A stretch of 64,000 bases of DNA, taken from positions 62,001-126,000 of the forward strand of contig CDMY01001064.1 in assembly GCA_001179505.1 (NCBI GenBank), read 5' to 3'. Position numbers and translations under genes: made by a program. Origin of the DNA: Vitrella brassicaformis CCMP3155 (Eukaryota > Protista > Chromerida). Shown here in pieces: positions 35,149 to 49,656 of this stretch; position 1 is the stretch's first letter, and every line of letters begins with the position of its first letter. A model generated the notes under the pieces. That model was not told the DNA's origin. It searched no databases and saw only the letters and a program-made list of their open reading frames with translations.

Positions 35149-36204
35149 TCACACATCCTCCTCATCATCGTCAATAATCACCAGCCCCGGCTGCACGACC
35201 TCGGCCTCAAGATCGAAGCGCCGCAAAACGGGCCGCAGCAGGCGCATCGACACCGGGAATCGGACGGTCATCGGCTGGGCGGCCTCGGCAGCAGGCGGCT
35301 CCGTAGTAAACAGAAAAAGCTGGCTGTGCTTCACCTCCAGATGGACGATGATCACCTTGTTGGCTCGGGAGTCGCTGAGTACCAGAATGCGACGGTAGAT
35401 AGATGTGCGCTGATAGGCAAGAGATGTGGCACAATAAGGATGTTGATGTGCATCGGTCATCTCGAAGCGACACTCGCCAGCGATACCCTCCACCCCGCTG
35501 ATCCCCTCGGTCATCAGACGCCGAATGCGACGGTCAGGCAGGCGGCACTCGAGAAGTTGTTTGTAAGAACAGGGAGCCTCAGGAAAGCGACGGTCAGGAC
35601 GCCCGACAGAACAAATGGGCTTCAGCCGCTTGCCCGCGGCCTTGCGGCTCCATTCAGCCAGCAGGTGCACCAGAGACAAAGAGAATGAGGGATAAAAGAT
35701 ATCTTTCCTTTGCCGCTTCCTGCAGCGAACAACAGGGTCCGTCATCTGGTAGGCTTCAGCGTAGCCATGCCAGGGAGGCAAATCGCCCAGCCGCACCACA
35801 TCAAAGGCCTCGTCGTATATGCTGCATGCCCCGTTGTCATCGTGGTGCAGCGTCAGGCGGCTCCCGTTGCATTCGAGGAGGTGCCCGACGAGCCCGTAGA
35901 GCACCATGGCAAGGGGCAACTTGTCGAAGGCCGTGGCAGTGGGCAATGAATCAGGCGATAGGCGAAGGGGCAGAGGAGAATCGGTTGTAAGCTGACAGAC
36001 AGAGGCCACCCGGATGGTTCGCCCTATCGCTCGCCATTCGTCATCGCCCTGCCGCAGCGCGTACAGGACCTTGAAAACGCCTTCAAGATCATCGATATCG
36101 AAGCTCAGGACGTCCTCCAGGCCGAGGCGGCTCATCTCTTGCTCAATGTGGCTCTTCACTTGCACAAGCACGATGCTGTCTGGTCCGTCGCGGCCTCCGA
36201 GCAT
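35149..36204 (-). CDS. Intronless member of the same lineage-expanded family as 23463-25225; 5' end possibly truncated
   Basis: 351-aa ORF with blocks shared with the 23.5-25.2 kb gene and the 44.2-44.6 kb remnant (RLMTEGISGVEGIAGECRFE; RFPVSMRLLRPVL). An in-frame TGA lies just upstream of the Met. Confidence 0.65.
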   Translation of the reverse strand: MLGGRDGPDSIVLVQVKSHIEQEMSRLGLEDVLSFDIDDLEGVFKVLYALRQGDDEWRAIGRTIRVASVCQLTTDSPLPLRLSPDSLPTATAFDKLPLAMVLYGLVGHLLECNGSRLTLHHDDNGACSIYDEAFDVVRLGDLPPWHGYAEAYQMTDPVVRCRKRQRKDIFYPSFSLSLVHLLAEWSRKAAGKRLKPICSVGRPDRRFPEAPCSYKQLLECRLPDRRIRRLMTEGISGVEGIAGECRFEMTDAHQHPYCATSLAYQRTSIYRRILVLSDSRANKVIIVHLEVKHSQLFLFTTEPPAAEAAQPMTVRFPVSMRLLRPVLRRFDLEAEVVQPGLVIIDDDEEDV

Positions 36205-36968
36205 GAATCGACGAGTTTGCGGAGTAAGGCTCGTCTGGCCGGATCAGGCGACGTGGCCATGTCGGCCGCCTGCCTGAGTGTTATGCTGAGCAGGGAAGGG
36301 AAACCCGAAGGGCTCTTCGACGGCTGGGACGCCATCGGGAAATCGAAAGAGACCTTGGAAGGGGTCAAGGGTTTTTGCCCGAAGCAGCAGCAGCGGTTTC
36401 ACGAAGCACCCTAGGCAAGATTTGCGAGCTTGCTATTGAGCTCGCAGATGTCCTCAGCCTGAACACGACGCGCCATTACACTGCCAATGTTTCTGCCTGT
36501 GCTGTGTGTGTGCCTGCAGGTGGAGATCTACACCGCTGGGCCGATCTGCGCCATTTCCGTGTGTGGTTCTGCGACTGGTGCTGGCGGCCAGAGATCTCAA
36601 CGATTCCACGGTGGCGGCGGCCTGCACATGCTCGCCATGGCGCTGCTCGGCATCGGCAGCACGGCAACATCGCTGACATCAAATCCACCAGGCCGCGAAC
36701 CTCAGCCATCCGGCCACATCATCCTGCTGAGGCGCTCTTTGCAGTGCGAATAAGTCGGTGATGGCTGGTGGGATCGGATCGAGGTGCCGAGAAGGAGGAC
36801 GCATTTTCGCCCGCAAAGGACTGCATCTGGACCGACGTCGTGTGGGCTGTCTATCGGTGTACTCATCTTGTCCTGGAAGCCCCCGTCAGCCGACATCGAG
36901 ACAGATCGCTTCGGGCGCTGGACGCGACACCAACATATCTATTCATCAATATTCATCCATTTCGGCAA

Positions 36969-39900
36969 ATGCTCCTGTTCGAGAGTATTTTCGGTGCTGT
37001 CCTCAAGGCGGGGTGTGCAGCGGTGCCGGTCTGCAAGACCAAGTGCCTCGTGCATGGCACCTGCCACCTCGCCATTGCACACGGGCCCCGCCGCAGCAGA
37101 GCTGCCCTCGCCCTCGCCACTGGTGGCGCCATCCTGTGGGCTACCATCACAATCCAGCGCTTTAAGGTCAGAAATCACACAGACGGGCAAGATCGCAGTG
37201 AGGGACAGACGGCGAGGGCTGGTGGGAGGCAGTGGGTGGTCGGAGAGGGACGGATGGGACAAGTATTGATGCGTGTTGGGCTGTGTGTGTGCAGGAGCGC
37301 ATTATGCGGGCCATGGAGGGCCTCTTCGACCAGCGTGAGGGCCGCCCTCAGCCCCACACCCCCCCAGCACACCCACAAGATCGCCGCCAACTTCAAGAAG
37401 AGGCTCCTCGGCCGCGTGAGTATCCCCAAGCCGAACGCATCACACTTGGAATTACATGAGTGTTCTGTGTGTATCGTGCAGGCATCACGTTTGGCGGTTC
37501 TCCGCGGTTGCTGGCCATCGAAAATGGGCCACGACCACTCGCCATCGAGGACTCGCCAAGACGACCGGTGAGGACACATGATGCCTACTTCAGCTCGCCT
37601 GTGTGAGCAGGTCATCGGCTGTCCATCTGTCCGTTCGTGTGTGTGTGTGTGTGTGTGTCTGTGTGTGTCTGTCAGGACGGGAGTGCGGTACTGGGTGAGG
37701 AGGCCATTCCGGAGATCCCCCGAGCGGCAGACGAGAAGATGATCCCCGTGCACGCAGCTCCAGGTGAGCAACGCAATGCACAGACAAAACATAACTCATG
37801 GACGTGCACTCCTCTCTCCTTCCGGCTGTGTGTGTGTGTGCAGGGGCGTCATTCGCCGCAGCCGTTGCCACCTCCCTGTATGGTGGCCGACAGCCATCCA
37901 TCTCGCCCTCTCTGCCGCCCATCAACTTCATCACCGAACCGTCGACTTCGAGGCGAGGTTACGAAGGCCGGCAGGGAGGAGCCCGTTTCACGACGTTCCA
38001 GGAGCCTCAGCTGCCGTGGGAGGGGCTTGTGCCCGTGGGAGATGTCTACGCGCACGGCAGCAGTAAGCATGGACGCAAGCTAGCAGGGAGGGAGGGAGGG
38101 GATGACCTTCATGACGCTGTTTGACGGTACTCAGGCGACTGTGGCGTATTGGGGCAAGACCTAGACCGGCCATACCGGCGGATGCCCGACAAGATCCTTG
38201 TACGCAAGCCGAGACTCACCCATTTATTTATGCCCATGTGTGTGGTGTGATTGACCGGTGGGTGTGTCTTGTCCAGGCGCTCGAGAACAGGGGCATCTGG
38301 GACATCTCGGTGGGCTCCCCACACAACGCCGCACTCGACGTCGAAGGAGCCATCTGGACATGGGGTATGTATGCGGAATGCGCATGGATTGCGTGCACCT
38401 GCCAATGCGTCCGTTTCTGTCATTGCGTGCGTTTGCCCACCAGGCTGTCCGGATGAGTACGCCCTGGGACGAGCTGGCCAAGACTATGAGCCACGTACGT
38501 ATGTAGGCAGCCGAACGGACACCGTACAGTACACGAGTTATTCGTCATCTGTTGTGTGCGTGCAGTGGCGGTGCGCCACATGCCTGTGCCGGTCAAGAAG
38601 GTAACTCAACACCGACAGACAGACAAGACATGAGAATCTCAATGTACGTGTTTATGTGCTGCACCCATTCAGGTGGTCTGCGGCGACAGCCACACCGCGG
38701 CCCTTTCGTTTGAGGGTCAAGTGTACATCTGCGGCGCGTACAGGGTACAAGTGATTCACTCGGCCCATACATACATGCATCCAGTTCTGTCTGTCTGTCT
38801 GTCTGTCTGTGTACCTATCAGGACACGAGTGGCGTCATCGGCTTCCCGCGCCGTGAGGTGCTCATCACCGGCCTTCCCGAGTCGGCCTCCGAGGACGAAG
38901 TCAGGCGCTGGTTCGGCAAGGTTGTCGGAGATGTCCAAGATGTCCGACTCCGCACGGACGACGAGAAGGACGAGAAGTGAGCAATATGCAGCACCCTGCC
39001 TGCTGTGTGTGTCTCTGTTGGATATTGAAGTGTGTTTGTGTGTTTGTGTGGTGGCAGCGTGGCGCGGGTGGCCTTCTGGACCGAAGCTGCCGTCGACCGA
39101 GCGGCCCAGCTCCGTAGCACGGTGAGAACGGGAGAAGATACGTATGCATCGCGTAAAGGTGTGCATTGAGTGCGTTCCCTCTGTCGCTTCAGTTCTTTAA
39201 GGCGGTCGTGCCGTGCGTGGCCGAGAAACAGAAGTACCCCGCCATGGTGCCCGGCCTGGAGGACGTTGAGCAGGTGGCTAGTGGCGACAACCACACCGTC
39301 GCCCTCTCAACAGAAGGCGTGGTAGGCAATTAAACGACATCCATGGTCTCACATGTGGGTGGATGTATGGATGTTTTCTTTGCTCACGGATGGATGGATG
39401 GATGGATTGCAGCTGATGGTGCTGGGCAGCAACGAGTTTGGGCAGCTGACGATGCCCAACTCCCGCCCAGGCGACTTCATGGCCACAGCCCTGCCCATGA
39501 TGCGCACCACAGAGCAGTAAGCTGGCGGGCTGAGGCGGCACCATAGGTGTTTTGCCTCTGTGAATGCGCACTCCCATCAGGTTGGGGATCGATGGCCGCA
39601 TGACGCGCGTGTGGGCGTTCGGCAACGTGACCTTCATCGCCGCCGACACGGGACGGGCCGGCATCAGATACTACGGGTAAGCTGAGCAAGCAGCAAGGAA
39701 TGTATGCAATCAACAAACGAAGTGTGCCGTGTGCTATGGGTGGATGTGTGGTACGTCAGCTGTGGCATCAACAGCCGGGGGGAGCTGGGCTTGGGCGTTG
39801 TGTGCGAGTTCGTTGACACCGTGACGGAGGTCACTGCCTTGAGGAACAAACACGTACGCGCCACAACCGCAATGAACACGCATTCATGTGTGCATTGAAT

Positions 39901-41660
39901 GTGTGTGTCGTGTATTATTCTGGCAGATCACACACATGGCGGGCGGTGCGCATCACACCGTGGCCCTACTCGACGACGGCTCCTTCATGAGTTGGGGGAA
40001 GCGTAAGCATTCAGCCACCGACACACAAGCAAGCATCACCAGCTCGTCCATGTCTGTTGGTGCGTCCGTGTATGTGTGTGTTTGTGTGTGTGTGTGTGTG
40101 CAGAGGAGCTGACAGGGACGGGCACGCCAGGCAAGGAGGTCCCGATGGCGCTGCCCCTCATGACCACGCGTGTGAGAGTAAGTACATACACCGGGCAGCA
40201 GAGTGACTGAGCGACACAGCCACACACATGACGGCATGACCGTGTTTGGTCGCTCAGGGTGTCAGGCTCGCCACGATTGGCGCGGGCGAGACGCACACTC
40301 TGGCCACAACGACCAACGGCGATGTGCTCAGCTGGTATGCCCGCACATGTCACTTAAGTGAGGCCACACATCCACAGCTGCTGTGTGGTGTGTGATGCTG
40401 TCTCTCATGGTGTCAGGGGTTTCGGCGGGTGCTATCAGCTAGGCACCAGTTTGTCGCGGCTCTCCACGGACAAGGCCTTCCCGGATGTGCGGAGCGTCAC
40501 CGAGCTGGCCCCCTACTGCATCGAGTCGAAGCAGCTGTGTGACATGTTCGTCCTGAAGGTGGGTGGTCTTCGTCCATTGGTTGGTTCATTCATTCAGACA
40601 CGTCATGTATGTATCACTCCTGTACTGCTTGTTGGGCGTGCTGTGTCAGGCGGACGGCAGCGCACAGCACTCGATAGAGCTGGTATGCATGTGTGTCATC
40701 TGGTTGTCGTAGACAAACTTACTTCCTCTGTGCACTTAGGCGTGGACCGGCAAGTGGGAGCGGCTACGTCCATTCCAGCCCACCGCTGTAAACAGTCACC
40801 GAGCTTGTCAACTCCTTCTTCTCACGCACTCGGTATCCCTCATTCCTCTCTGTCTGTTTGTTGCAGGCCGTTGCACCGAGTGACGGCGGCATGCGCGAGG
40901 ACACGGAAGAGGTAATCGATCCGACAGGCACATAACATGACATGCATCCACCCATCCATGGGCAATCTGCTTTGGTGTAGGCGGAAGCCCCTGACCGCCC
41001 CTTCTTCGGCCCTCACCTTCCGCTCTTCGGCCGAGACGCAACATCGACATTCGGCCCGGTCCAGTCCCCACCGATTGTCGAGCTCTCCTTTCAGGGCAGC
41101 AGTCCGTCCCTCCCGTCCTTCCAGTCCGCCCCCCTCTTCGGCCTACCCCAGCAGGCCGACAAGGACAGTGGGACAGCAGCACCAGCAGCAGGAGCAGCAG
41201 AAGGGGCGGCATCGGCATCGCCCTCATCCTCATCCTCTTCGCGGAGACGCGGACGGCGGGGGCGGCTGTCGGGGCCATCGCTGTCCTTCGGCACCGGGGT
41301 TCTTACTGGCCACCAAGGGAGTGGGGCGGGGGCAGCTCTTTTTTCAGCAGCAGCAGCAGCAGCAGCTTCTTCTTCTCCATTTGCTGCCGGCGGTGCGCAG
41401 CAGGGTGGTGAGGGGGGTTTCGGGCCAACCCAGGAGGGCGTGCAGCTGTTCCAGGGTGCCACGGGGGATCTTCAGTACGGCAGCAGCGGTGAGGCACGTG
41501 GGCAGGCGACCACAAGGGGAGAAAGTGCGTGCATGGATGACTGACTGACTCTCTGGCTTTGTCTGGTTGTTGTTGAGCAGCTTCCAGTGGCCGCCGCCGA
41601 CAGGATGAAGGAGAGGAGGAGGACGACAGTTGGATGGACGCGAAACGAAAGCGACGCTGA
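36969..41660 (+). CDS. RCC1: RCC1 (Ran guanine-nucleotide exchange factor) homolog with inserted RRM-like domain, FG-rich tail and C-terminal NLS
   Basis: Seven RCC1-type blades (VYAHGSGDCGVLG, ISVGSPHNAALDVEGAIWTWG, VVCGDSHTAALSFEGQVYICG, VASGDNHTVALS, CGINSRGELGLG, AGGAHHTVALLDDGSFMSWG, IGAGETHTLA, GFGGCYQLG, GSAQHS). Beta-wedge GAYRDTSGVIG. Ends ...MDAKRKRR-stop. Confidence 0.85.
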
Positions 41661-42239: not shown

Positions 42240-43715
42240 TCACGCCAAGGATGTGGCCTTCCTCCTCACAGTGAACACATCGCCCATCACGTGTTCACCG
42301 CCCTGCTTGCGAAGCATCTCGTGCCTCACGGAGACAGACCACTGACATCCCGCCAGCTGCCTCAACCGCCCTTTCGACGTATCTCCGACCGTGGCAGTAT
42401 CGGCCCGTCGAAGTCAGGCTGAATCCACCGTCACCTGAAGTCGCGTCGCCGCTCTCAATCGAGAAGATGAGCAGCCCCCCCTCGCGCAGCAGAGGAGAGA
42501 TGCACTCGAAGAGGCTTCCAAGGTTGCCGATATACACACACATCGCAGGCCACGATGAGGTGGAAGGACGGGGGCAGAGGGGGCCGCACAGCCGCAGCGG
42601 GGAGACAGATGTCGACGTCTGGCCACCTTTTGAGCACCTGCAGAGCGGCAGAGACGGAAACAGTAGGTGTGTTCTGCACAGGTCGTCGAATGCCCCTAAT
42701 CTGCTTACCTCGACTATGTCGCCATGGATGAGCGCGTCATACCCCCCCTTAGCATCCGCCTCACGCAGCATCTTCTCCGACAGGTCCACATCCACAAGAG
42801 TCAGGCGCGATGCGCCCAGGCACTCCATCATGTCACTGCTCCTCAGTGCCCGACAAGCAAGCCCAGCGCCACAGCCAAGATCGAGAACGTCCAGAGGCTC
42901 AGGTGGCGATAGCAGGGGGCCATTCTCACGCAGCACTTGGCACACGAGCTGAGGTGTCTGATAGTGCAGCTTGCCCACCAGGTGTGACTCGAACGAATGC
43001 GCGTAGCCGTCAAACAGCTTCTGCACGTACGATGACGGCGCCTTGTCGACCCCATCCGCCTCGCCAGAAGAGAACGCCAGCCAATAACTCGCGCACTCAT
43101 TGGTGGGGTCCAGCTCGACAGCCCTCCTGAGGTATGTCACGGCTTTGGCAGACCTCTTGTCGTCACGCAAGAGCACCTTGGCAGCGTAGAACGGCCAAGA
43201 CGGATTGTCTGGACATTCGGCCATGAGACGCTCGTAGCACATCAGCGCCTCAGAGTGAAGCCGGAGACCCCGTGAGAGACTGCCACGCCTTTGCTACGCC
43301 TGGATGTAGTGGCCATCCACCTCAGTTGCCGCTCTGATTGCCTCAAGAGCGCGCTTGCAATCCCCCGCCCGCTGCAGAAGCGTCGCCAGGCTGCACCAGT
43401 ACTTGACGCCTGAGCGGTGCAGCTCGACAGCCTTCTCGAGATGAAGCAATGCACCTGCAGCTTCAGCCGCGTCTTGTGAATCCCGGCTGCTGCTTGGAGG
43501 GGAAGAACAAGAAGCATCGGACGACTCCTCTGCAATCAAAACGCCCAGGCAGTGATGCAGCTCCGCCAGAACAGTAGGCTCGGCACATGACGGCAGCGAA
43601 GAGAGGGTCTCCTCGAGAAGGACGATGCACTGCTGGCGCTCGCCGCCTACTTGTATAAAGCCTTGCAGCGCTCCAGACACTCATCACTCGCCTGGGTCGG
43701 CGAATCGCCGGTCAT
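42240..43715 (-). pseudogene. TPR-repeat + class I SAM-dependent methyltransferase (predicted TPR methyltransferase family), disrupted
   Basis: APSSYVQKLFDGYAHSFESHLVGKLHYQTP, LDLGCGAG, VDLSEKML, ACDVCVY/IGNL, LLIFSIE, TGRYCH. In-frame TAG at 43294-43296 and frameshifts near 43649, 42535 and 42325. Confidence 0.8.
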
Positions 43716-43981
43716 TTGTCTGTCCGGTCGTATCTCCTCTTCATTGCCCGATACTTGGCGAGTGAGATGGTGGCCTCGAGCTCTCCCCGGTAGAAGCGCA
43801 GCCACGCCAGGGCCCTCTTGAGGTCCTCGGGCTGTTGGAGGTGCTGCCGCTGGCGGATCCATGTCTTGATCTTGGCTATCTCCTTCTCGCCGTCGCCTGG
43901 GTAGTCGTGTCGGGCGGTGTAGCACATCTGCTTGAAGATGGACATCAGCCGCCGACGAATCTCCGGGCAATGAAGCATCAC
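43712..43981 (-). CDS. ETFRF1: LYR-family protein, electron transfer flavoprotein regulatory factor 1 (LYRM5) homolog, intronless
   Basis: 89 aa. The pattern DYP...ELEATISLAKYRAMKRRY matches the LYRM5 signature (DYP...ELEALYFLRKYRAMKQRY). Confidence 0.85.
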   Translation of the reverse strand: MMLHCPEIRRRLMSIFKQMCYTARHDYPGDGEKEIAKIKTWIRQRQHLQQPEDLKRALAWLRFYRGELEATISLAKYRAMKRRYDRTDK

Positions 43982-44149
43982 CGATGAATCGAGGAGCGCA
44001 ACTCATTTTTTCTGCTTCTCTCCGCGTGCCGATATGAAGGCGACCCGTTCATTCCGAACAAACGGGTTTTAAGGTCTAGGGTTTCAAACCCGACGAGAAC
44101 CTTCCCGCGAGACAGAGACAAAATAAGTAGATTCCACCACGGATTTGCC

Positions 44150-47309: not shown

Positions 47310-49656
47310 GCAAGGCCAGGCTGGTCTTGGCGGATGAGGGCGCTGTGGGCCTCGCCGTAGCCCTCAACCATGCCGTAAGCGAGTTAAACATACGCACACG
47401 CATACAAACGTACATGAGTTTGTACGAATGTCTGTCTGTGCGGTTGGTTTTGTCGCTCCACAGGTCTTCAACGGCCAGCGCATCGGCGTCAAGGTGGGTG
47501 GTGCGGTCAATAAGCAGCTCTACCCCTACCGGCTGCCCGGCCTGACCGACGTGGAGCAGCTGGCGAGCGGCGACAACCACACCGTTGCACTCTCAAGGGG
47601 AGTGGTAGGCAAGCAACCACATAACACTATCCACCATCCATGTGTGTCTGTCTGTCTGTTTGTATTTATGTGTGTGTGTCAGCTGTACGTGTGGGGGGCC
47701 AACGACTTCTCCCAGCTGACCTTCCCCCAGCCGCCCGCCACAGGCCCCACTGACCGCGCGGCATTCGACGCCGCCCTCTTCCCCACCAGACGCACCACAC
47801 ACCAGTGAGTGGCGTCACATATGGAGGGCACTTAGGCAGCCCCGAAGATGCATCTGTGCGTCGTGTTGGTCATGTGCAGGTTGGGATTGGGCAGAGAGGC
47901 CGACATCAGGCGCGTGTGGGCGTGTGGCAATGCCACCTTCGTGGCGGCGGTGTTGGCCGCCAACGACGGCAAACGCCATTATGGGTGGGGAAAGGTCGGG
48001 CAGCGGCCCACACATGCACACGAACATTGGTGTGTGGCTCGCGTGTGTGTTGTCGATGCAGGTGCGGGTCCAACTCGTGTGGGGAGGTGGGCATCGGCAC
48101 CAAGACCAACACCGTCGACCGCCTGATGGAAATCCCGGCACTCTACGACAAAGACGTAAGCCACACGTGTGCACAGGGACGGTGATCAGCGAGTGCGAGT
48201 GGTCTGTCTGTCTGGGTATCTATCTCTGTGTGTGTGCAGGTGGTGAGCCTGTGTGGCGGGCAGTTCCACACTATGGCCCTCATCCGTGACGGAAGCGTCA
48301 TGACCTGGGGCAAGGGTAGGACGCAATGCAAACACATGTGGCCACGGAGGATACACACATCACATCAAACTCTCCCGGACCCACACACGCATTCGTTTGT
48401 GCGTATGTATGTGTGCAGGCGAGAACACGGGCCTCGATGTCTCCAACCGCCTGGTCGACGTGACGGTGCCCTGTAGCATGAGGGTCGAGGTGAGCTCTCA
48501 AAGGCGAAGGACAAGTCACTGTTATGGCNNNNNNNNNNNNNNNNNNNNNNNNNNNNNNNNNNNNNNNNNNNNNNNNNNNNNNNNNNNNNNNNNNNNNNNN
48601 NNNNNNNNNNNNNNNNNNNNNNNNNNNNNNNNNNNNNNNNNNNNNNNNNNNNNNNNNNNNNNNNNNNNNNNNNNNNNNNNNNNNNNNNNNNNNNNNNNNN
48701 NNNNNNNNNNNNNNNNNNNNNNNNNNNNNNNNNNNNNNNNNNNNNNNNNNNNNNNNNNNNNNNNNNNNNNNNNNNNNNNNNNNNNNNNNNNNNNNNNNNN
48801 NNNNNNNNNNNNNNNNNNNNNNNNNNNNTGTGTTTTGTGTTGGTCACGTGCAGGTTGGGATTGGGCAAAGAGGCCGACATCAGGCGCGTGTGGGCGTGTG
48901 GCAATGCCACCTTCGTGGCGGCGGTGTTGGCCGCCAACGACGGCAAACGCCATTATGGGTGGGGAAAGGTCGGGCAGCGGCCCACACATGCACACGAACA
49001 TTGGTGTGTGGCTCGCGTGTGTGTTGTCGATGCAGGTGCGGGTCCAACTCGTGTGGGGAGGTGGGCATCGGCACCAAGACCAACACCGTCGACCGCCTGA
49101 TGGAAATCCCGGCACTCTACGACAAAGACGTAAGCCACACGTGTGCACAGGGACGGTGATCAGCGAGTGCGAGTGGTCTGTCTGTCTGGGTATCTATCTC
49201 TGTGTGTGTGCAGGTGGTGAGCCTGTGTGGCGGGCAGTTCCACACTATGGCCCTCATCCGTGACGGAAGCGTCATGACCTGGGGCAAGGGTAGGACGCAA
49301 TGCAAACACATGTGGCCACGGAGGATACACACATCACATCAAACTCTCCCGGACCCACACACGCATTCGTTTGTGCGTATGTATGTGTGCAGGCGAGAAC
49401 ACGGGCCTCGATGTCTCCAACCGCCTGGTCGACGTGACGGTGCCCTGTAGCATGAGGGTCGAGGTGAGCTCTCAAAGGCGAAGGACAAGTCACTGTTATG
49501 GCTCTCTGTCTGTCTGCCTGTGTCTCTCAGGGGGTGCGCTTCCTCTCCGTCGGTGCCGGGAGGACCCACACGGTGGCGTGGGGATTGGTGGGGGCGGACT
49601 TGTGTGAGGAGGGAATGGCAGGGGACGTTTGGGCCAAGCGAACGTCTGAGTGGTAA
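47310..49656 (+). pseudogene. Truncated paralog of the RRM-containing RCC1 (end of RRM plus blades 4-6)
   Basis: DEGAVGLAVALNHAVFNGQRIGVKV, LPGLTDVEQLASGDNHTVALS, CGSNSCGEVGIG, GGQFHTMALIRDGSVMTWG, VGAGRTHT. Intron positions match the 37-41.7 kb gene; 5' and 3' parts are missing. Confidence 0.75.
48529..48828. other. Assembly gap (300 N) flanked by near-identical duplicated sequence (~47860-48528 vs ~48835-49502)
   Basis: N run. The flanks repeat with a 974-bp offset and only a few substitutions. Confidence 0.95.

What the first reader, a model, noticed from the sequence alone, without database searches (positions are those of the whole stretch)
38822..39260. RRM-like domain inserted into the RCC1 propeller directly after the Ran-contacting beta-wedge
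Seen: after GAYR/DTSGVIGF the spliced protein does not continue into the next blade. It reads REVLITGLPESASEDEVRRWFGKVVGDVQDVRLRTDDEKDE-NVARVAFWTEAAVDRAAQLRST-FFKAVV, then resumes RCC1 sequence (KYPAMVPGLEDVEQVASGDNH). Established: G.(F/Y)RD..G.IG is the RCC1 beta-wedge that opens the Ran nucleotide site, and the insert has the RRM beta-alpha-beta-beta-alpha-beta pattern (RNP2-like VLITGL, RNP1-like ARVAF). Inference: a RanGEF whose activity or localisation might be coupled to RNA or nucleoporin binding. I know of no RCC1 with this architecture. The RNP aromatics are degenerate, so it may bind protein rather than RNA.
Basis: partly seen in the sequence, partly recalled or inferred. Interest (0 to 1): 0.82.

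Follow-up and report, generated by a model that had tools for sequence, protein, structure and literature searches.

The report
Ran activator with inserted RRM domain
In the alga Vitrella, the protein that likely switches on the nuclear-transport GTPase Ran carries a spliced-in 70-residue domain with an RNA-binding-type fold right beside its catalytic wedge; the domain has lost its RNA-stacking residues and likely acts as a docking module, an arrangement not found in the relatives examined.

Summary
The window is Vitrella brassicaformis. A 25-exon gene (36969-41660) encodes the 915-aa database protein P0002, an RCC1 orthologue. Residues 351-420 follow the beta-wedge directly, hit Pfam RRM_1 above cut-off and fold as an RRM in two predictors. 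A 2,045-nt spliced contig in runs of two studies joins all insert exons to the propeller. The insert also occurs in at least three further Vitrella copies, two of them only 35-38% identical to this one over the insert. It is absent from 36 wedge sites in 32 other RCC1-type proteins, including apicomplexans and dinoflagellates; Chromera was not retrieved. All three RNA-stacking aromatics are lost (L355, V394, R396), strand 4 is shortened and the pI is 5.1, so canonical RNA reading is unlikely. Conserved arginines remain on the sheet. Best reading (0.4): an active RanGEF with a non-catalytic docking module for a protein partner, perhaps replacing the RanBP2-type zinc finger that its relatives carry. 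UniRef's automatic name already notes the RRM; no paper on it was found. New variant of a known kind; interest 0.5.

The parts
36969..41660 (+). RCC1-RRM gene, 25 coding exons, 915 aa (= P0002, CEM40089.1 / A0A0G4H8R6)
   Evidence: spliced contigs
38044..38848 (+). RCC1 propeller, first part (about residues 232-350), including GDSH (D322, 38685-38687)
38733..38848 (+). beta-wedge GAYR|DTSGVIGFP (338-350; Y340/R341 = human F146/R147), split by intron 38745-38821
   Evidence: hairpin E340-342/E345-347 in blocks of pLDDT 96-97
38849..38976 (+). RRM insert part 1: beta1 (RNP2-like VLITGL), alpha1, beta2, acidic loop (residues 351-392)
39058..39121 (+). RRM insert part 2, 64-nt exon: beta3 (RNP1-like NVARVAF) and alpha2 (393-414)
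   Evidence: same 64-nt exon in the paralogue at 47311-47374
39193..39210 (+). RRM insert part 3: shortened beta4 FFKAVV (415-420)
39211..40745 (+). RCC1 propeller resumes (strand 3D to blade 7, residues 421-691)
40867..41488 (+). low-complexity FG-enriched tail (6 FG in residues 699-915, shuffle p 0.004)
   Evidence: pLDDT below 50
41643..41657 (+). C-terminal KRKRR, NLS-like (inferred from the sequence)
47311..49578 (+). partial paralogue starting in mid-RRM (full beta4) and running through blades 4-6; 211 of 224 residues identical to P0003; 666-nt near-identical duplication across an N gap

Best explanation
This is the Vitrella RCC1 orthologue, likely still an active Ran exchange factor, with a transcribed 70-residue domain, predicted to fold as an RRM, inserted in the loop after its beta-wedge, where it likely serves as a non-catalytic docking module for a protein partner rather than as an RNA reader. 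Shown: the insert is spliced in, lies between the wedge and strand 3D, leaves wedge and propeller intact in the model, has lost all three RNA-stacking aromatics and keeps arginines on its sheet. Inferred: the wedge pries open Ran's nucleotide site as in other RCC1s. Also inferred: the insert projects from the rim of the Ran-binding face, and its arginine-bearing sheet binds an acidic stretch of a nuclear partner (Ran itself, a transport receptor or a nucleoporin). It would thereby hold or position the GEF, taking over from the RanBP2-type zinc finger that apicomplexan and dinoflagellate RCC1s carry and Vitrella's copies lack.
For: Orthology: the best structural matches are RCC1 (3mvd Z 56.8, rmsd 1.6, 368 aligned; 1i2m Z 55.7), above HERC2 (47.5) and UVR8 (43.0). 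It groups with dinoflagellate and apicomplexan RCC1 at UFBoot 100. Wedge Y340/R341/D342/G345/G348 and D322 are kept. Folded insert: AF2 block pLDDT 72-87; Atlas TM 0.78-0.85 to RRMs in 10 of 10 rows. Retention: the paralogue P0003 insert is 36% identical yet also models as a full RRM, and P0167 keeps it at 38%. R369, R385, R396, F372, A395, L411 and F416 are invariant in all three. Against RNA reading: PMC5113200 (passages) says RNP2-2 and RNP1-3/5 aromatics are required for RNA binding, and that atypical RNPs or an acidic pI mark protein-binding variants; here they are L355, V394 and R396, with pI 5.07. Accessory swap: a RanBP2-type zinc-finger motif is found in 8 of 9 apicomplexan and 3 of 4 dinoflagellate-type RCC1s and in 0 of 2 Vitrella copies, while an FG-enriched stretch is kept.
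Against: No partner is identified and no binding was measured. The insert diverges faster than the propeller between paralogues (36% against 50-51%), and this copy has lost 5-8 residues of strand 4, which also fits decay. P0003's insert is basic (pI 9.9), which suits nucleic acid as well as protein. The zinc-finger replacement rests on one lineage, so it is a single coincidence. Human D182 is N447 here, although 13 of 13 Vitrella and piroplasm rows of alignment A3 have N. That the loop lies at the rim of the Ran face follows from known propeller geometry, not from coordinates I could inspect.
Confidence: 0.4

Rival explanations
1. The insert is a sequence-unspecific nucleic-acid tether. Its arginine-rich sheet (R383, R385, R396) grips DNA or RNA backbone and keeps the GEF on chromatin or nascent RNA, making up for a shortened nucleosome-binding loop.
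For: R385 and R396 are invariant in three paralogues. P0003's insert has pI 9.9. The blade-4 loop that holds human R217 (PMC4750278, passages) has 15 residues here against 21 in human, and it is the loop next to the insertion site.
Against: This copy's insert has net charge -2 with an acidic alpha1 and an acidic beta2-beta3 loop. R475 may still serve as the nucleosome anchor. There are no binding data.
Confidence: 0.25
2. The insert is a tolerated passenger. An RRM landed once in a loop that accepts length changes and is slowly decaying, kept only as far as needed not to disturb the propeller.
For: The loop is naturally variable (spacing 49-72 residues in 32 other proteins). The insert is less conserved than the propeller, the RNP aromatics are lost, and strand 4 is shortened here. 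A genomic copy with a 65-nt deletion in the RRM exon exists. It is known from one species only.
Against: Core and surface residues are invariant across copies only 35-38% identical. The frame is kept across two shared introns. P0003 has lost its wedge and its D128-equivalent but kept a well-modelled RRM. There are 0 changes in 32 RRM residues against 13 in 192 propeller residues between P0003 and the 47-kb copy, though this is not significant (p 0.22).
Confidence: 0.23
3. The insert binds a specific RNA through a non-canonical surface and gates or localises nucleotide exchange, so that RanGTP production is coupled to RNA.
For: It sits directly on the C-terminal end of the catalytic wedge. Its best sequence matches among the hits are ordinary multi-RRM proteins (22.8 bits).
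Against: All three stacking aromatics are absent and the pI is acidic. The wedge is described as rigid (PMC3507198, passages) and is modelled intact without any ligand.
Confidence: 0.12

Closest known systems
RCC1 / Prp20 (Srm1) Ran guanine-nucleotide exchange factor (PDB 1i2m, 3mvd, 8ux1, 3of7)
   Same: Seven-bladed RCC1 propeller (Z 56.8, rmsd 1.6 over 368 residues), blade-3 wedge with the F/Y-R pair, GDSH motif.
   Different: About 70 extra residues of RRM fold after the wedge (blade-3 to blade-4 spacing 124 against 53); long N- and C-terminal extensions; NLS-like motif at the C-terminus; N at the D182 position; shorter blade-4 loop.
Myzozoan RCC1s (Babesia, Theileria, Besnoitia, Prorocentrum, Polarella; TgRCC1 as reviewed in PMC5785795)
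   Same: Same clade; divergent long proteins with accessory parts; N at the D182 position; FG-rich stretches in the dinoflagellate types.
   Different: They have a short loop after the wedge (spacing 55-67) and mostly a RanBP2-type zinc finger; the Vitrella copies have the RRM and no such finger.
Canonical RRM (Pfam PF00076)
   Same: Fold and hydrophobic core; above the Pfam cut-off.
   Different: RNP2-2 is Leu, RNP1-3 is Val and RNP1-5 is Arg; strand 4 is short; it is nested inside another domain.
Protein-binding RRM variants (UHM family; eIF3b RRM, as described in PMC5113200)
   Same: Degenerate RNP motifs, acidic alpha1 and low pI in this copy.
   Different: No RXF motif and no aromatic at RNP1-5, so it is not a UHM; no partner is known.

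Membership tests
RCC1 RanGEF | seven-bladed RCC1 propeller | tested here: met
   Pfam WD40_RLD 225.6 bits against cut-off 150; AF2 model; VIA Z 56.8, rmsd 1.6, 368 aligned to 3mvd_K
RCC1 RanGEF | blade-3 beta-wedge (human 146-156) with F146/R147 | tested here: met
   Y340/R341 in YRDTSGVIGFP; hairpin modelled at block pLDDT 96-97
RCC1 RanGEF | orthology with true RCC1 rather than other RCC1-like domains (HERC, NEK9, RPGR, UVR8) | tested here: met
   Top 10 Foldseek hits are all RCC1/Prp20; inside the myzozoan RCC1 clade at UFBoot 100 in a 28-sequence, 378-column tree
RCC1 RanGEF | acidic Ran-contact residues D128 (importance recalled) and D182 (PMC7522611) | tested here: inconclusive
   D128 is kept as D322; D182 is N447, as in apicomplexan orthologues, one of which is reported to be an active GEF (PMC5785795)
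RCC1 RanGEF | nucleosome-binding arginine (human R217) in the blade-4 loop | tested here: inconclusive
   The loop has 15 residues against 21 and one arginine (R475), not conserved in apicomplexan rows
RCC1 RanGEF | catalyses nucleotide exchange on Ran | not testable with these tools
   needs an enzyme assay
canonical RNA-binding RRM | [quoted passage not shown] | tested here: met
   E353-357, H365-376, E379-387, E392-399, H402-413, short E417-419; TM 0.78-0.85 to RRMs; Pfam 30.0 bits
canonical RNA-binding RRM | aromatic residues at RNP2-2, RNP1-3 and RNP1-5 | tested here: not met
   L355, V394 and R396 by alignment to an independent RRM profile; criterion from PMC5113200
canonical RNA-binding RRM | binds single-stranded RNA | not testable with these tools
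   needs a binding assay
UHM | RXF motif in the alpha2-beta4 loop | tested here: not met
   The loop reads RSTFFK; paralogues read HAVFNG and DSFFEW
UHM | aromatic kept at RNP1-5 | tested here: not met
   Arg in all three paralogues
UHM | acidic alpha1 and low pI | tested here: inconclusive
   SEDE at the start of alpha1 and pI 5.07 here, but pI 9.94 in P0003
Nup35/Nup53-type RRM | match to the Nup35 RRM families | tested here: inconclusive
   Not among the 6 Pfam families listed at E up to 1; no single-domain structure search was run

The most novel reading that the evidence does not exclude
A RanGEF whose exchange activity or position is controlled by a nucleic-acid ligand through a domain hinged on its catalytic wedge. 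This would tie the RanGTP gradient to RNA in a lineage that has also lost the canonical RanGAP. A wedge-dead paralogue that keeps the RRM would act as a decoy or regulator.
Probability: 0.12. Interest if true: 0.85.

Novelty: new variant of a known kind. Interest (0 to 1): 0.5.

Why it matters
RCC1 is the one known Ran exchange factor, and its wedge region is among its most constrained parts. A folded 70-residue domain grafted onto the end of the wedge shows that the enzyme tolerates, and may use, an add-on at that spot. The Ran cycle of myzozoans is already unusual: the canonical RanGAP is reported missing in chromerids, apicomplexans and dinoflagellates (bioRxiv 10.64898/2026.08.05.743068), and their RCC1s carry nucleoporin-like accessories. 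Vitrella is a free-living relative of apicomplexans and offers a direct test of how these accessories position the GEF. If the insert is only a passenger, the finding is a curiosity of one species.

Tried and rejected
Complex prediction of residues 222-697 with a metagenomic Ran: no answer (score 0.03, mark 0.34; alignments were not used, and the Ran was a stand-in from another organism); it is no evidence either way. Run search: no RNA holder listed on record, so the RNA nature of X5 and X7 is read only from their intron-skipping contigs; X1, X6 and X8 did not cover the insert. No whole genome is held, so an insert-free Vitrella RCC1 could not be excluded by a genome search; some searches returned only P0002, P0003 and P0167 as named Vitrella hits, and each scored limited candidates or cluster representatives. 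Chromera and colpodellid RCC1s were not retrieved. Gene-prediction artefact or retained intron: rejected. Insert-free isoform by exon skipping: either exon alone shifts the frame, and both together remove half the wedge. Two genes fused by annotation: rejected, since one contig spans both propeller halves. UHM membership: rejected. Pfam and my own RRM profile (1.1 bits) do not detect the RRM in P0003; only the predicted structures do. Atlas feature searches gave no usable hit. Whole-model structure searches were filled by the propeller and did not class the RRM. PDB sequence search with half the insert gave only weak generic RRM hits (best E 0.007). The donor RRM family is not identified. Selection test P0003 against the 47-kb copy: not significant. 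An N-terminal membrane anchor is borderline (hydropathy 1.49) and is not claimed. Frankel 2007 was not held. Two look-ups of earlier findings were empty. One script used a wrong frame for the 47-kb copy (row win47k; corrected).

Full report
Identity. The exon 38822-38974 found exactly one protein among 16 candidates: P0002, 915 aa, Vitrella brassicaformis, which UniRef names 'RRM domain-containing protein' (accessions). A 25-exon model built by coordinates equals P0002 letter for letter and runs from 36969 to the stop at 41660. Pfam finds the RCC1-like domain in two stretches and RRM_1 at 354-416, with 30.0 bits against a cut-off of 20.7.

The insert is in the spliced transcript. No run is on record as RNA. 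However, runs X5 and X7, from two studies, each hold one 2,045-nt contig that skips GT..AG introns, while run X3 reads through them. In that contig 38671-38743, 38821-38976, 39058-39120 and 39192-39321 are contiguous, and the joints 38976/39058 and 39120/39192 are listed with 63 letters on the shorter side. X5 and X7 each laid only this one contig on 38400-39380. Contigs drop rare variants, so minor skipping is not excluded. Skipping either exon alone stops the protein at 360 or 436 residues, and skipping both removes half the wedge. The insert's borders lie inside exons (38849 and 39210), so it is not a simple cassette.

It is an RRM fold, beyond chance. A profile made from 34 domains of five non-Vitrella multi-RRM proteins scores the insert 39.2 bits; the best of 2,000 shuffles scores 10.4. 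The Atlas model of residues 348-425 matches RRM-type domains in 10 of 10 rows, at TM 0.78-0.85. AlphaFold2 with a 30-sequence alignment gives beta 353-357, alpha 365-376, beta 379-387, beta 392-399, alpha 402-413 and a short beta 417-419, at block pLDDT 72-87. The wedge hairpin (340-342/345-347) sits at 96-97 and strand 3D resumes at 427.

The host is a true RCC1. The wedge is human residues 146-156, with F146 and R147 as key residues (PMC3507198, passages). The alignment puts these on Y340-P350, so the insert starts at the very next residue. The ten best Foldseek hits are RCC1 or Prp20. VIA gives Z 56.8, rmsd 1.6 and 368 aligned residues to Drosophila RCC1, above HERC2 (47.5) and UVR8 (43.0). 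In a tree of 28 chosen sequences (378 profile columns, LG+G4), the two Vitrella, four dinoflagellate-type and seven apicomplexan sequences are split from the other 15 at UFBoot 100. I read the supports from the Newick string, because the rerooted labels are shifted. Vitrella groups with dinoflagellates at 96, against the accepted species tree (recalled), which I take as an artefact. D128 is kept (D322). D182 is N447, as in all 13 Vitrella and piroplasm rows of alignment A3; the Toxoplasma orthologue is reported to be an active GEF (PMC5785795, passages).

Distribution. Of 289 proteins fetched, 33 have a recognisable wedge (37 sites). The blade-3 to blade-4 spacing is 49-72 at 36 sites in 32 proteins, 53 in human and 124 in P0002. 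PF00076 is listed for 1 of 103 hits (P0002 itself) and 0 of 40. My RRM profile finds no other RCC1 protein among the 289, but it also misses P0003, so such scans are blind to very divergent inserts; the spacing count is not. In the HMMER search of 1.84 billion representatives with wedge, insert and flanks, only P0002 and P0003 among the best 150 align across the whole query, and P0167 covers the RRM plus blade 4. All three are Vitrella proteins. Chromera and colpodellids were not retrieved, so the age of the insertion within chromerids is open.

A small family in one genome. P0003 (911 aa; its longest contig has the same length as P0002's) has spacing 130. Its insert is 36% identical, against 50-51% for the propeller and 83-88% for both ends. 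It models as a complete RRM with strand 4 at 379-382 (pLDDT 77-93; Atlas TM 0.82-0.87). Its wedge is degenerate (block pLDDT 57) and GDSH has become GGHH, so it is likely catalytically dead while keeping the RRM. Variant letters in the X5/X7 contigs reproduce P0003's N-terminus (12 differences fall to 1, and that one is explained by a junction row), so it or an identical copy is transcribed. A partial copy in this window (47311-49578) starts in mid-RRM with the same 64-nt exon and is 211/224 identical to P0003. P0167 on another contig has the RRM from alpha1 on. DNA run X3 holds a further copy with a 65-nt deletion in the RRM exon.

What the insert can bind. [quoted passage not shown] Here these positions are L355, V394 and R396 and the pI is 5.07; P0003's is 9.94. 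There is no RXF motif and no RNP1-5 aromatic, so it is not a UHM. Invariant in all three inserts are core residues (F372, A395, A404, A408, L411, F416) and R369, R385, D391, R396 and E402. The apparent matches before residue 365 are unreliable because P0167's gene model is doubtful there. By the usual alternation of RRM strands (established knowledge, not measured on coordinates), R385 and R396 face the open sheet. This copy lacks 5-8 residues of strand 4 relative to its paralogues.

Context. A RanBP2-type zinc-finger motif is present in 8 of 9 apicomplexan and 3 of 4 dinoflagellate-type RCC1s tested, 0 of 3 insect-type ones and 0 of 2 Vitrella copies. FG dipeptides are enriched in the Vitrella tails (6 against 1.9 expected, p 0.004) and in dinoflagellate linkers. 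The blade-4 loop that carries the nucleosome-binding R217 in human (PMC4750278, passages) is shorter here and has one arginine. Chromerids are reported to lack the canonical RanGAP (bioRxiv 10.64898/2026.08.05.743068, passages).

Mechanism. Shown: spliced insert, RRM sequence signal, intact wedge motif, orthology, paralogue retention, loss of RNP aromatics. Predicted: the folds. Inferred: GEF activity (about 0.8), the position of the insert at the rim of the Ran-binding face, and its role. I put protein docking at 0.40, backbone tethering to DNA or RNA at 0.25, passenger at 0.23 and RNA-gated exchange at 0.12.

Literature. No paper holds RCC1 + Vitrella + RRM. Searches for RCC1/RRM/domain insertion/propeller (16 of 18 listed) and Vitrella/Chromera/RCC1 (9 of 9 listed) showed no title or abstract start on this architecture; I saw only those listings. 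I also read passages of PMC7522611 and PMC12691783. Renault 2001, Makde 2010 and the Frankel papers were seen only as cited in those passages. Subscription papers are not searched, and supplements were not examined. The domain pair is visible in automated annotation, but no description was found.

Verdict. It is a real, transcribed, lineage-restricted domain insertion next to the catalytic wedge of a conserved enzyme: a new variant of a known kind. Interest is 0.5, held down by its one-species range and the untested function.

Noticed in passing
window 47311-49578 (+): Partial RCC1-RRM paralogue. The stretch about 47863-48528 is repeated at 99.7% over 666 nt after the 300-N gap, likely an assembly overlap; no upstream RCC1 exons were found before 47311.
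   Followed up: partly
P0003 (Vitrella, outside the window): Paralogue with a degenerate wedge and GGHH but an intact RRM. Its ends are 83-88% identical to P0002 while the core is about 50%, suggesting gene conversion or chimeric duplication; its model may lack part of blade 1.
   Followed up: partly
window 38837-39045, run X3 contig: Another genomic copy of the RRM exon and intron with a 65-nt deletion, probably a pseudogene.
   Followed up: no
P0004, P0160, P0122, P0010 (dinoflagellate-type RCC1s): RCC1 domains in tandem repeats with RanBP2-type zinc fingers and FG-rich linkers, plus a long insertion in the blade-4 loop: a nucleoporin-like RCC1 architecture.
   Followed up: partly
window 36969-37166 (+): The N-terminus has a Cys/His cluster (C16, C22, C26, H29, C32, H33) and a borderline hydrophobic helix at 45-63; possibly a decayed zinc finger or a membrane anchor.
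   Followed up: partly
window 42298-43293 (-): Open frame of 332 codons with weak TPR and SAM-methyltransferase hits, all below cut-off.
   Followed up: partly
window 43730-43999 (-): Short frame resembling an LYR-motif protein (resemblance recalled); no Pfam hit at E 0.01.
   Followed up: partly
window 35152-36243 (-): 364-codon open frame with no Pfam family.
   Followed up: no
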